The position numbers and the translations under genes are program-made. From a virus (lineage: Duplodnaviria; Heunggongvirae; Uroviricota; Caudoviricetes): 64,000 bases of DNA. The notes beneath the pieces were generated by a model, which searched no databases, was not told the origin of the DNA, and saw nothing but the letters and a program-made list of their open reading frames with translations. Of this stretch, positions 8,732-10,866 are shown piece by piece. How positions within the stretch are numbered: position 1 is the first letter of the stretch; the number at the start of each line of letters is the position of its first letter. The DNA lies in the IMG/VR virus record IMGVR_UViG_2693429668_000006, one strand, 5' to 3'.

Positions 8732-10060
8732 ATGCAACTAACAATGGTAAGTACGAGAGCATACATGCCTGTTTTTATTTCTGTTGCAATTCTAATGTTT
8801 TCCATAATAATTTTGTTTTTAGGTTTACTACTTGAGCCATTTCAAGATTGGAAGGTTACAGACCAAATTGCTGTATTGAGTAGTTTTATAACGACAGCGG
8901 CTTTTTGTGCAACAGCGTGGAACGCCTATGAAGCAAGAAAAAGTGCAAAGGCAGCACTGGAGGCCGTTAGGATAACTACCGATTCATTGATTGAGATGAG
9001 AAAAAATTCTTTCAAAGAATGGTTTGACACTTTATTAAATCAGCATGATGAGTTGTACAATAATGTCATACCAATCATTGAACAGACAAAAAAACAATTT
9101 AATAAAAATGAAATGCATTCGTTTTTTTATCCATTGGTAAGAAAGCATGAGGTTATTCAGTACATAAAACATATTACCAATATATTAGTCTATGTAGATA
9201 ACCGATTTTACATAGATGGAAATTGTTTTGATGAAAAAATGGAATATATTATTCAATTGAGTGGAAAAATACCACCGCAAATGAAGTTGGTTATTGCAGT
9301 TTTTGGATTGGACATCGATTCTCGTGAACCGCTGGATTCAAAAAAACTGTATGCTTTATTAAATAAATATGATTTTTTCAAAGATGAAATATTCTTTGAT
9401 GATGCTTATTCAAGCATGCCTGAAGTAGAGCTATTTATAAAGGATAGATTTGATAAAATATTTAAAACCAAGATGTTAAAATACTTTTGGAACGTGATTA
9501 AGGAATATTATTCTCAAGTTGAAGTCAAAGAAATCTGGGTGGTTCGTCGTCCGCAAGTTGCTTCATCGGTATTAATGAACTACCAAACACCATTATCTGG
9601 TTTAATTGATGATTATTTTAAAAATTTGCCAAATGAGGTAAAGAGCATTTTTGATGAAGCACTAAAAAAAGCTAATGATAGTGTTACGTCTATTGATGAC
9701 TATATTCATCGTTTGATCGGTTGCAGAGTCGCGTCGATTTCAGAGCATGTCCATTTCGAAAGTGAAATACTGAGTAGTGAAAAGGATGTGAAGGATATGA
9801 TTAAAAATTACATAGAGCAAAGAAAAACTGGAAAAAATGCGGTAAATCTTGGGCAGTTATATTTCTCGAGTGAGTCAGATGTAATTACAGGTGATCAGTT
9901 GAGTGATGCGATCGATGAATATGAGAAAAAGTTGGCACTTATGGCAATAAACGATAATGATGATAGTGATAACCTATTGTGCCATATCTATATTAAATCA
10001 TGTGAGATAGTTGATGAATATAAGCGTGAAACATTAAAATTGGGCGAGTACGCACAATAG
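8732..10060 (+). CDS. membrane-anchored hypothetical protein (two N-terminal TM helices), AT-rich accessory gene
   Basis: 442 aa; hydrophobic segments VFISVAILMFSIIILFLGLLL and IAVLSSFITTAAFCATAW; markedly AT-rich relative to flanks; plus-strand among minus-strand genes. Confidence 0.6.
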   Translation: MQLTMVSTRAYMPVFISVAILMFSIIILFLGLLLEPFQDWKVTDQIAVLSSFITTAAFCATAWNAYEARKSAKAALEAVRITTDSLIEMRKNSFKEWFDTLLNQHDELYNNVIPIIEQTKKQFNKNEMHSFFYPLVRKHEVIQYIKHITNILVYVDNRFYIDGNCFDEKMEYIIQLSGKIPPQMKLVIAVFGLDIDSREPLDSKKLYALLNKYDFFKDEIFFDDAYSSMPEVELFIKDRFDKIFKTKMLKYFWNVIKEYYSQVEVKEIWVVRRPQVASSVLMNYQTPLSGLIDDYFKNLPNEVKSIFDEALKKANDSVTSIDDYIHRLIGCRVASISEHVHFESEILSSEKDVKDMIKNYIEQRKTGKNAVNLGQLYFSSESDVITGDQLSDAIDEYEKKLALMAINDNDDSDNLLCHIYIKSCEIVDEYKRETLKLGEYAQ

Positions 10061-10290
10061 GTTGTGCAGATTCGAAGCCTCTTTAAATTTTGCGCTGAAA
10101 ATTGTTATTTTACGGTAAGTAACGCTGTTTTCAGCGCATAAATGTCAGTGAATAATTTGATGCTTGCTGTAACGATGGTACGCTACGTAAAATCCGATAT
10201 TTATGAGACTGATTGCAGGTAAGGACTTACATAGCGCACAAAAATTGCTGATACCAGATGCAATATATGTTTAATGTCAAATTTTAGATA

Positions 10291-10306
10291 GGGGCGTATA
10301 CGCCCC
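10291..10306. terminator. palindromic hairpin GGGGCGTATACGCCCC followed by T-rich tract
   Basis: Perfect 16-bp palindrome then TGTCATTATTTTATTTT; abuts the stop of the lipoprotein gene at 10312. Confidence 0.5.
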
Positions 10307-10311
10307 TGTCA

Positions 10312-10866
10312 TTATTTTATTTTATCTTCTTCTAAACGAGAAAATTTAAATTGTTTATCGGTGATGGTGAGTAGTGTTACACCTTCCTTTTCGTGTAAAA
10401 GACCGGCACCGTTTGACACCATAATCAATCTATCCTTCCCTCGAAAGATTTCATAATATTTACCAGCTCCACAAGTTTTAGTTTCAATACAGTCCATGCC
10501 AGATACTGCTTCTCTGTTAAAAACACGATCTTTTGTAGCAACGGGTTTTCCGTACTCCTTTGTCAGCATTTCACTTATCTGGATGAATGTATACTTACCA
10601 ACATTACTGGTTAATGACATTTCGACTTTTCCGTCGATCAGGTTGCCATTCGTATGCGGTTCTTTTTCAGTCGGACTATTTTTATCTTGAAGAATAAACA
10701 CTTCAACATTTTGTGTTAGCTTCTTGAATTGGGCTTTATAATTTTGTTCAAGTTCACTTTTATCTTTGCCTATTAACGTTAATTCATCTATTTCAGATTC
10801 GTTACACCCTGTTAGTGTTAACGCAATTATTAGAGATGCGAAAATATTGAGATGGCACTTCTTCAT
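10312..10866 (-). CDS. lipoprotein (signal peptide with lipobox LTGC)
   Basis: 184 aa; MKKCHLNIFASLIIALTLTGC N-terminus; AT-rich like the neighbouring membrane protein. Confidence 0.6.
   Translation of the reverse strand: MKKCHLNIFASLIIALTLTGCNESEIDELTLIGKDKSELEQNYKAQFKKLTQNVEVFILQDKNSPTEKEPHTNGNLIDGKVEMSLTSNVGKYTFIQISEMLTKEYGKPVATKDRVFNREAVSGMDCIETKTCGAGKYYEIFRGKDRLIMVSNGAGLLHEKEGVTLLTITDKQFKFSRLEEDKIK

What the first reader, a model, noticed from the sequence alone, without database searches (positions are those of the whole stretch)
8732..10866. AT-rich two-gene island: membrane-anchored 442-aa protein plus lipoprotein
The plus-strand gene 8732-10060 (two N-terminal TM helices, large cytoplasmic domain) and the convergent lipoprotein gene 10312-10866 are both conspicuously AT-rich. 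They are flanked by hairpins (10291-10306, 10986-11006) and an inverted repeat TTTTGCGCTGAAAA/TTTTCAGCGC (about 10089-10138), and interrupt an otherwise minus-strand replication module. Membrane-anchored accessory proteins in such islands are often superinfection-exclusion or abortive-infection factors.
Basis: partly seen in the sequence, partly recalled or inferred. Interest (0 to 1): 0.6.

Follow-up and report, generated by a model that had tools for sequence, protein, structure and literature searches.

The report
Two accessory genes in phage-plasmid hotspot
This AT-rich stretch of an E. coli phage-plasmid holds two unrelated, independently acquired accessory genes: a membrane-anchored protein distantly related to the AbiC/AbiP anti-phage "abortive infection" proteins, and an orphan lipoprotein of unknown role. 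It is a fairly ordinary but so far unannotated cargo site.

Summary
Window 8604-10981 is a 2.4-kb AT-rich insert (GC 0.33 against 0.46) in an SSU5-type E. coli phage-plasmid. It lies between the glutaredoxin gene and the terminator of the tRNA operon, and it is absent from the closest sequenced phages.

It is not a two-gene unit. The two genes occur together only in this one near-clonal lineage, and a 29-bp duplicate of the right flank separates them.

Gene 1 most likely starts at 8765 (431 aa). It is a full-length but divergent homologue of Enterobacterales proteins that match Pfam putAbiC (hhalign probability 100%, E 7e-44). It has the AbiC-type layout of two N-terminal membrane helices and a helical cytoplasmic body. 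Alleles only 26-58% identical sit at the same site in nearly identical backbones, and the C-terminal half is hypervariable. My best reading is a single-gene, membrane-anchored anti-phage (abortive-infection type) protein. The phenotype is inferred, and its polar signature residues differ from the wider family.

Gene 2 is a lipobox lipoprotein from a narrow orphan family that also occurs in pHCM2. Its function is unknown, and receptor masking is only a guess.

Novelty is modest: a new, unannotated member of a known kind, sitting in a cargo-exchange hotspot.

The parts
8347..8592 (-). Glutaredoxin gene. It forms the conserved left border of the variable site.
   Evidence: It is 91-98% identical in relatives. 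Similarity ends at about 8604.
8593..8764 (+). Very AT-rich (GC 0.27) upstream region of gene 1, presumed to hold its own promoter. No strong sigma-70 consensus was found.
   Evidence: A GAGAG Shine-Dalgarno-like motif lies 6 nt before ATG 8765.
8765..10060 (+). AbiC/AbiP-like (putAbiC superfamily) membrane-anchored protein, 431 aa. The ORF opens at 8732, but the conserved start is 8765. TM1 is about residues 13-34 and TM2 about 45-65 (442-aa numbering). The putAbiC-core equivalent is about residues 135-222, and the hypervariable C-terminal half is 223-442.
   Evidence: (phrog_18168).
10073..10101 (.). Degenerate partial copy (27 of 29 bases) of the conserved right flank: the 3' half of the tRNA-operon terminator plus 18 nt. 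It marks the old end of the gene-1 cassette.
   Evidence: (D3).
10088..10141 (+). Inverted repeat forming a long hairpin just after gene 1. It is not followed by a U-run, so its role is unclear.
   Evidence: I12; -23.7 kcal/mol, z -2.2.
10287..10310 (.). G+C-rich hairpin between the two convergent genes. It is terminator-like on the + strand and probably works in both directions.
   Evidence: z -5.7 on the + strand, -5.05 on the - strand.
10312..10866 (-). Lipoprotein gene, 184 aa. Lipobox LTG-C21 with Asn at +2. It has two invariant cysteines (C126, C132) and a predicted mostly beta fold. It belongs to an orphan family (phrog_15156).
10949..10976 (-). Best sigma-70-like site in the region (TTGACA-16-TATCGT, 10 of 12 bases), placed to drive the lipoprotein gene.
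10986..11005 (-). Intrinsic terminator of the minus-strand tRNA operon (tRNA-Asn, Tyr, Thr, Ser). It is the conserved right border where every cargo variant ends.

Best explanation
The window is an SSU5/pHCM2-type phage-plasmid of E. coli. The site between its glutaredoxin gene and the terminator of its tRNA operon is a cargo-exchange hotspot. In this lineage the site holds two independent moron-like cassettes.

Cassette 1 (8593-10101) encodes a 431-aa inner-membrane protein. It has two N-terminal transmembrane helices and a helical cytoplasmic body. It is a divergent member of the AbiC/AbiP (Pfam putAbiC) superfamily.

Inferred mechanism: the protein is expressed from the resident phage-plasmid. 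The hypervariable C-terminal half senses a component of an unrelated infecting phage. The highly conserved TM2/juxtamembrane module together with the putAbiC core then halts the infection, by membrane damage or by blocking phage gene expression or replication. This protects the lysogen population, as AbiC, AbiP and PdpSau do.

Cassette 2 (10102-10985) was added next to cassette 1, leaving a duplicated 29-bp piece of the flank. It encodes an orphan lipoprotein, probably outer-membrane by the +2 rule, whose function is unknown. The most likely role is a cell-surface lysogenic-conversion function such as receptor masking.

What is shown: the homology, the architecture, the site, and the independence of the two cassettes. 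What is inferred: the defence phenotype and the mechanism.
For: Element identity: 92-98% identical flanks to phage Cyrano and CMS-2020a, and 100% to the matched stretches of plasmid pTIC and several E. coli plasmids of about 110 kb.

Variable site: relatives carry other cargo between the same borders. Examples are a YafO toxin, a gp49_66 protein, a SASA-esterase protein, and a PDC-M68A-like nuclease.

Homology of gene 1:
- The profile of the close family finds 87 representative clusters.
- 52 of 65 full-length members match Pfam PF16872 putAbiC (best E 1.2e-13); 9 match PADLOC AbiC and 6 match AbiP.
- P0008, 31% identical to the window protein, reaches the Pfam cut-off. Its close relative P0009 lies on a contig of about 109 kb, and alleles about 31% identical to the window protein occupy this same site in SSU5-type backbones (L044-L046).
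- hhalign of the close family against distant family members (nearly all of which match putAbiC): probability 100%, E 6.7e-44, 381 columns.
- Distant members are named 'putative phage abortive infection protein' by NCBI.

Architecture: TM1 is strong; TM2 and the all-alpha body come from the model (pLDDT 73.7). AbiC also has two TM helices, and AbiC and AbiP are grouped as single-protein membrane-anchored Abi systems (PMC13064643).

Defence-like evolution:
- Alleles 26-58% identical sit at the same position in backbones whose integrase and ligase are 99-100% identical.
- Mean pairwise identity is 60% for residues 41-100 and about 19% for residues 223-442.
- All alleles are AT-rich whatever replicon carries them.
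- One allele has moved to F-type plasmids together with a piece of the tRNA-Ser flank.

Independence of the cassettes.
Against: - The window protein itself matches neither Pfam putAbiC (no hit at E <= 1) nor PADLOC AbiC/AbiP.
- Nine near-invariant polar residues of the wider putAbiC family are replaced in the phage-plasmid clade. These are the S, R and H of 'SPYMRxLYH', the R, S, N and D of 'RSxIRND', the N of 'LIAVN' and the H of 'FDFFEH'. The biochemical activity may therefore differ.
- No phenotype data exist for any member of this clade.
- For the lipoprotein there is no homology or reliable structural evidence at all.
Confidence: 0.6

Rival explanations
1. Gene 1 is an inner-membrane superinfection-exclusion protein. 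It would block DNA entry of related SSU5-type or other phages (in the manner of Imm, SieA or gp15) rather than abort an infection. The allelic diversity would then reflect exclusion specificity between competing phage-plasmids.
For: Membrane anchoring, with the most conserved part at TM2 and the juxtamembrane helix. Divergent alleles in near-isogenic backbones. Loss of the polar signature of the wider putAbiC family.
Against: Full-length homology to proteins of the AbiC/AbiP group, whose studied members act after DNA entry (PMC13064643). The large cytoplasmic domain of about 375 aa is atypical of small exclusion proteins.
Confidence: 0.15
2. The two genes form one functional envelope-spanning system, with an inner-membrane protein and an outer-membrane lipoprotein acting together.
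For: They are adjacent, convergent and both AT-rich in this lineage. The pair is conserved at 99.9-100% in about 8 plasmids and 5 IMG/VR contigs.
Against: Among the loci fetched, none of the other loci carrying a gene-1 allele has the lipoprotein, and none of the 11 other lipoprotein loci has gene 1. The genes have separate promoter and terminator signals, and a duplicated flank remnant lies between them. Lipoprotein homologues elsewhere have near-native GC and different neighbours.
Confidence: 0.06
3. Neither gene has an anti-phage role. They would be selfish or host-adaptation cargo, for example a membrane stress or colonisation factor, or a decaying remnant silenced by H-NS.
For: There are no experimental data. 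The upstream region is very AT-rich with no good promoter match for gene 1. The lipoprotein family also occurs on a Kluyvera-type chromosome.
Against: Both ORFs are intact and conserved over their full length across many elements. The family link of gene 1 is to Abi proteins. The same site carries toxin and nuclease candidates in relatives.
Confidence: 0.19

Closest known systems
Lactococcal AbiC / AbiP ('AbiC/P' group; Pfam PF16872 putAbiC; PADLOC AbiC, AbiP)
   Same: A single-gene, mobile-element-borne protein with an N-terminal membrane anchor (two helices, as in AbiC) and a helical cytoplasmic body. There is full-length profile homology to Enterobacterales proteins that pass the putAbiC cut-off. 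The gene is AT-rich and patchily distributed.
   Different: There is no direct match of the window protein to the Pfam or PADLOC models. The near-invariant polar residues of the putAbiC core are substituted. The protein is longer, 431 aa against about 344 aa for AbiC (from memory), with a hypervariable C-terminal half of about 220 aa. The host is a Gram-negative phage-plasmid. The phenotype is untested.
PdpSau (S. aureus prophage-encoded, membrane-anchored AbiP-like Abi protein; PMC10127798)
   Same: It is encoded by a temperate phage and anchored in the membrane by its N-terminus. It protects lysogens against unrelated lytic phages and acts after DNA entry, with membrane depolarisation. This is the functional model proposed here.
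   Different: PdpSau has one TM helix, 278 aa, and a positively charged OB-like cytoplasmic domain. The cytoplasmic part here is acidic (pI 5.3). No sequence comparison with PdpSau was done here.
Phage exclusion lipoproteins Llp (T5) and Cor (phi80/N15/HK022), and the Bor/TraT-type conversion lipoproteins
   Same: A small lipobox lipoprotein expressed from a resident phage genome as a moron, with its own promoter-like site and terminator.
   Different: There is no sequence similarity beyond the signal peptide (phrog_1119 Cor, E 0.041, residues 1-50). The protein is larger (164-aa mature form). No receptor is known.
Defence/cargo hotspots of temperate elements (for example the P2/P4 hotspots, from general knowledge)
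   Same: A fixed site with conserved borders that holds alternative, mostly AT-rich cargo, including toxin, nuclease and Abi-like genes.
   Different: Here the borders are a glutaredoxin gene and a tRNA-operon terminator in an SSU5-type phage-plasmid. Much of the cargo has no known defence role (esterase, PhoH, gp49_66).

Membership tests
Pfam PF16872 putAbiC (AbiC/AbiP group) | Direct match of the protein to the family HMM above the gathering score (22 bits) | tested here: not met
   There is no putAbiC hit at E <= 1 for the window protein. P0008 scores 22.0 bits, and 52 of 65 members of the extended family match.
Pfam PF16872 putAbiC (AbiC/AbiP group) | Homology to bona fide family members, shown by profile methods | tested here: met
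   An HMM of the close family hits putAbiC-positive proteins at E 1e-44 to 1e-10. hhalign A1 against A4 gives probability 100%, E 6.7e-44, over 381 columns.
Pfam PF16872 putAbiC (AbiC/AbiP group) | N-terminal membrane anchor (AbiC two helices, AbiP one) followed by a soluble domain | tested here: met
   TM1 at residues 13-34 has a hydropathy maximum of 2.99. The second helix at 43-67 is moderately hydrophobic and highly conserved. The architecture of AbiC and AbiP is taken from PMC13064643.
Pfam PF16872 putAbiC (AbiC/AbiP group) | Conserved polar signature of the core (the S, R and H of SPYMRxLYH; RSxIRND; the N of LIAVN; the H of FDFFEH) | tested here: not met
   In the window protein these positions are I, K, N, S, G, P, Q, F and D. 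The hydrophobic scaffold and H105 are kept.
Pfam PF16872 putAbiC (AbiC/AbiP group) | Works as a single gene, without a fixed partner | tested here: met
   Alleles occur with no conserved neighbour other than the backbone. The lipoprotein is absent from all loci with other alleles.
Pfam PF16872 putAbiC (AbiC/AbiP group) | Abortive-infection or phage-resistance phenotype | not testable with these tools
   This needs phage challenge of cells expressing 8765-10060.
PADLOC AbiC / AbiP models | Match to the defence-system HMM | tested here: not met
   The window protein has no hit. Nine of 65 relatives hit AbiC and six hit AbiP.
Bacterial lipoprotein (gene 2) | Signal peptide with a lipobox [LVI][ASTVI][GAS]C | tested here: met
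   MKKCHLNIFASLIIALTLTG-C21. L18, T19, G20 and C21 are invariant in 13 homologues.
Cor / Llp superinfection-exclusion lipoproteins (gene 2) | Sequence or fold similarity of the mature protein | tested here: not met
Moron / accessory cargo of a temperate phage | Deviant composition, own transcription signals, and presence or absence among close relatives | tested here: met
   GC z = -2.9 and -2.5. A promoter-like site and terminators are present. The insert is absent from Cyrano and CMS-2020a. In PLSDB the gene-1 family is in 138 plasmid records and the lipoprotein in 108. The ligase marks 639 SSU5-type records, but a minority of the gene-1 and lipoprotein hits are on other plasmid types, so these are not strict subsets.

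The most novel reading that the evidence does not exclude
The phage-plasmid clade of these proteins may be a distinct membrane-effector defence family rather than a plain AbiC copy. It keeps an almost invariant TM2/juxtamembrane helix. It has lost the polar signature of putAbiC. It carries a hypervariable C-terminal sensor half that is swapped as whole alleles at a dedicated site (glutaredoxin gene to tRNA terminator) shared by SSU5-type phage-plasmids of Escherichia, Klebsiella, Enterobacter and Salmonella. Current defence finders do not detect it.
Probability: 0.3. Interest if true: 0.55.

Novelty: new member of a known kind. Interest (0 to 1): 0.35.

Why it matters
SSU5/pHCM2-type phage-plasmids are common in clinical Enterobacteriaceae. 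About 20% of those in PLSDB carry an allele of this protein, annotated as 'hypothetical' (or left unannotated) in almost every record listed. The PADLOC and Pfam models do not recognise the window allele, and a DefenseFinder screen of SSU5-type contigs, in the passages I read, named other systems and not AbiC/AbiP (10.1101/2025.09.12.675607).

If these proteins are active Abi proteins, they are an overlooked way for such plasmids to protect their hosts from other phages. That matters for phage therapy and for the persistence of these elements.

The natural series of alleles (100%, about 55% and about 31% identical) in near-isogenic backbones would also be a convenient system for working out how the still mysterious AbiC/AbiP group senses phages and stops them.

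Tried and rejected
1. Direct family scans of both proteins (Pfam, NCBIfam, PADLOC) gave nothing significant. Only PHROGs of unknown function matched.
2. DNA and tblastn searches of 50,697 phage records found no match for either gene. The genes are therefore absent from sequenced SSU5-type virions in that collection.
5. One two-gene system: rejected by the co-occurrence table.
6. The spacer 10102-10311 as a remnant of the nuclease-like gene that follows the lipoprotein elsewhere: no similarity. It has no ORF of 30 aa or more.
7. A structured RNA in the island: Rfam finds only the four tRNAs.
8. The 'Abi_C' / SadR HEPN RNase literature (PMC13590631) concerns a different family (the AbiJ C-terminus). 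Only the name is similar.
9. A full-text search for 'putAbiC' found no paper.
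Full report
**What the window is.** Flanking DNA (6000-8285 and 10982-15000) is 92-98% identical to Escherichia phages Cyrano and CMS-2020a and more distantly related to Salmonella phage SSU5. The island and its neighbouring genes (integrase, glutaredoxin, ligase) are 100% identical to plasmid pTIC (MF554642.1) and to the 112,650-bp E. coli plasmid p19KM1803_1. The window is therefore an SSU5/pHCM2-type phage-plasmid. The local gene order is:
- CobT-like gene, small genes and a repressor-like gene
- integrase, 7033-8136 (-)
- glutaredoxin, 8347-8592 (-)
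- the island
- terminator, then tRNA-Ser, Thr, Tyr and Asn (-)
- small genes, then ATP-dependent DNA ligase, 13388-14710 (-)

**Check of the observation.** Both ORFs are present.
- GC is 0.327 and 0.350, against a mean of 0.460 (sd 0.045) for 55 ORFs of at least 100 aa. That gives z = -2.9 and -2.5, the second and third lowest in the window. GC3 is about 0.30 against 0.465. The whole insert 8604-10981 has GC 0.336.
- The hairpins at 10287-10310 and 10986-11005 fold far better than shuffled sequence (z -5.7 and about -3.2). Terminator-like sites are enriched, 7 against 1.8 +/- 1.5 expected.
- The inverted repeat 10088-10101 / 10128-10141 exists and extends into a -23.7 kcal/mol stem.
- The lipobox L-T-G-C21 is invariant in the family.

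Three corrections apply.
- All homologues begin at an invariant Met-Pro that corresponds to Met12, and RefSeq aa. The start is therefore 8765, not 8732.
- TM1 is clear. TM2 (about residues 45-65) is only moderately hydrophobic, but it is helical in the model and extremely conserved.
- The left arm of the inverted repeat belongs to a 29-nt direct repeat (see below).

**The site is a cargo hotspot with fixed borders.** Against Cyrano and the two CMS-2020a genomes, similarity breaks just after the integrase or glutaredoxin genes. It resumes exactly at 10982, the A-run before the terminator hairpin. An alignment of six different arrangements shows that every cargo variant ends at the same base, in front of AAAAAAGGGGCCGAAGCCCCTTTGAATTTTGCGCTGAAAAAAGTG. 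Between the borders, relatives carry other genes:
- a YafO toxin with a 202-aa partner, and a 302-aa unknown protein (L002)
- a gp49_66 protein and a 184-aa unknown protein (Cyrano)
- a 637-aa DUF1737/SASA-esterase/DUF6645 protein (L003)
- PhoH, sequestin, gp49_66 and YafO (Salmonella elements)
- a 262-aa protein whose N-terminus resembles PADLOC candidate PDC-M68A and CBASS endonuclease effectors

**The island is two cassettes, not one unit.**
- The 29 nt at 10073-10101, 13 nt after the stop of gene 1, are a 27/29 copy of 10994-11022. That is the 3' half of the terminator plus the following 18 nt.
- In elements that carry a 55%-identical allele of gene 1 and no lipoprotein, the gene is followed directly by the intact terminator and tRNA-Ser.
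- The lipoprotein module (10102-10993) therefore sits between an old and a new copy of the same border.
- I ran a tblastn table over 53 fetched loci. The two genes co-occur only in loci where both are 100% identical to the window. All other fetched loci with a gene-1 allele (26-58% identity) lack the lipoprotein. All 11 other lipoprotein loci lack gene 1.
- In PLSDB, the ligase that marks this plasmid type is in 639 records, gene-1 relatives in 138, and the lipoprotein in 108. Only three records hold the pair at 99% identity or more.

**Gene 1.**
- Direct scans give only phrog_18168 (unknown function, E 2.5e-204). Pfam, NCBIfam and PADLOC give nothing.
- A word-indexed search found ten close relatives of 30-56% identity, nearly all on contigs of about 110 kb.
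- A profile of these, searched against 1.84 billion representatives, found 87 clusters, 61 of them at E <= 1e-10.
- Of 65 full-length members, 52 match Pfam PF16872 putAbiC, 'putative phage abortive infection protein' (best E 1.2e-13). Nine match the PADLOC AbiC model and six match AbiP.
- P0008 is 31% identical to the window protein. It matches putAbiC at exactly the gathering score, over residues 132-207.
- Profile-profile comparison of the close family with 43 distant family members, nearly all of which match putAbiC, gives probability 100%, E 6.7e-44, over 381 columns. The homology is therefore full-length, not a shared helix.
- NCBI names distant chromosomal members (Cedecea, Pectobacterium) 'putative phage abortive infection protein'. 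Nearer members sit on plasmids of about 110 kb in Klebsiella and Enterobacter.

The AlphaFold model (pLDDT 73.7, pTM 0.65) is all-helical. It shows two N-terminal membrane helices, a long juxtamembrane helix and a helical body. It has no informative neighbour in the PDB or BFVD. A 2026 review groups lactococcal AbiC (two TM helices) and AbiP (one) as one 'AbiC/P' group of single-protein membrane-anchored Abi systems. According to that review:
- AbiC lowers capsid protein production.
- AbiP binds nucleic acids, blocks DNA replication and the switch-off of early transcripts, and is triggered by a major tail protein (PMC13064643).

The AbiP-like prophage protein PdpSau depolarises the membrane of infected S. 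aureus (PMC10127798).

**Differences from the wider family.** In the phage-plasmid clade the hydrophobic scaffold and His105 are retained. The near-invariant polar residues of the putAbiC core are replaced. These are the Ser, Arg and His of SPYMRxLYH, the Arg, Ser, Asn and Asp of RSxIRND, the Asn of LIAVN and the His of FDFFEH.

Within the clade, conservation is strongly uneven:

| Residues | Region | Mean pairwise identity |
|---|---|---|
| 41-100 | TM2 and juxtamembrane helix | 60% |
| 136-222 | putAbiC-core equivalent | 41% |
| 223-442 | C-terminal half | about 19% |

Alleles 31%, 55% or 100% identical to the window protein occupy the same position in backbones whose integrase and ligase are 99-100% identical. 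All alleles are AT-rich (GC 0.31-0.385) whatever the replicon. One allele has moved into F-type plasmids among IS elements. It took along a 266-bp piece of the terminator/tRNA-Ser flank that is 99% identical to the window. This pattern, a conserved effector-like module with a hypervariable remainder and whole-allele replacement at a hotspot, is what one expects of a defence gene. It is indirect evidence.

**Gene 2.**
- The 184-aa lipoprotein (phrog_15156) belongs to a narrow family of at least 61% identity. It occurs in Escherichia, Salmonella (including pHCM2 of S. Typhi CT18), Citrobacter, Enterobacter and Cronobacter plasmids, and on a Kluyvera-type chromosome next to fragments of a type I restriction system.
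- A profile search of 5.8 billion proteins found nothing beyond this family.
- In other phage-plasmids it lies at the same place next to the tRNA terminator. There it is followed, on the same strand, by the nuclease-like 262-aa gene or a 183-aa gene.
- Asn at +2 suggests outer-membrane sorting under the E. coli +2 rule (established knowledge).
- Its homologues elsewhere have near-native GC (0.41-0.47). Only the window allele is AT-rich.
- A role in receptor masking or surface modification is a guess based on the class of protein, not on evidence from this work.

**Verdict.** This is accessory, compositionally foreign cargo, and the membrane protein is a remote but solid homologue of the AbiC/AbiP abortive-infection group. 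The island is a chance juxtaposition of two independent cassettes in a cargo hotspot, not a two-gene system.

The defence function and any mechanism remain inferred. I put about 0.9 on the homology and about 0.6 on an anti-phage role. The finding is a new, unannotated member (a divergent clade) of a known kind, and I rate its interest as moderate to low (0.35).

Noticed in passing
window 21608-23314 (-): A second, even more AT-rich island (GC 0.295, the lowest of 55 ORFs, z -3.65). It encodes a 568-aa KAP-family P-loop NTPase (Pfam E 6.6e-6) that matches PADLOC defence candidate PDC-S49 (E 2e-21).
   Followed up: partly
window 11258-11556: The roughly 300-bp spacer between tRNA-Ser and tRNA-Thr is 82-90% identical to the region of phages P1, P7 and D6 annotated as upl/plp next to their tRNA-Thr/Asn genes. 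It has no Rfam match. It may be a conserved non-coding part of the tRNA operon rather than protein-coding.
   Followed up: partly
L014 5593-6381 (Salmonella phage-plasmid; also L023 5587-6375): In other SSU5-type elements the lipoprotein gene is followed on the same strand by a 262-aa protein. Its N-terminal 120 residues resemble PADLOC candidate PDC-M68A and CBASS/SAVED-HNH endonuclease effectors (E 1.8e-20). This is a possible defence gene in the same hotspot.
   Followed up: partly
L009-L013 (E. coli F-type plasmid contigs), about 5900-7600 of L009: A 31%-identical allele of gene 1 lies among IS1, IS91 and IS110 elements on conjugative-type plasmids. It is still attached to a 266-bp fragment (terminator plus tRNA-Ser) that is 99% identical to window 10981-11246. 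A phage-plasmid cargo cassette has therefore been captured by another plasmid type. A DUF6404 gene lies just upstream.
   Followed up: partly
L003 3343-5256 (CMS-2020a, CP054387): At the same hotspot this relative carries a 637-aa protein with DUF1737, SASA (sialate O-acetylesterase-like) and DUF6645 domains instead of glutaredoxin and the island.
   Followed up: no
L025 1432-2652 (pTIC, MF554642.1): Plasmid pTIC matches the window at 100% over the stretches compared. It has an extra 'mobile element protein' gene between the integrase and glutaredoxin genes that the window lacks.
   Followed up: no
window 8235-8267: A 16-bp near-perfect palindrome (AATGATTCCATACATA / TAGGTATGGAATCATT) lies just upstream of the integrase gene. 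It is conserved in all relatives and sits at the point where similarity to several relatives ends. It is possibly the recombination or binding site of the integrase.
   Followed up: no
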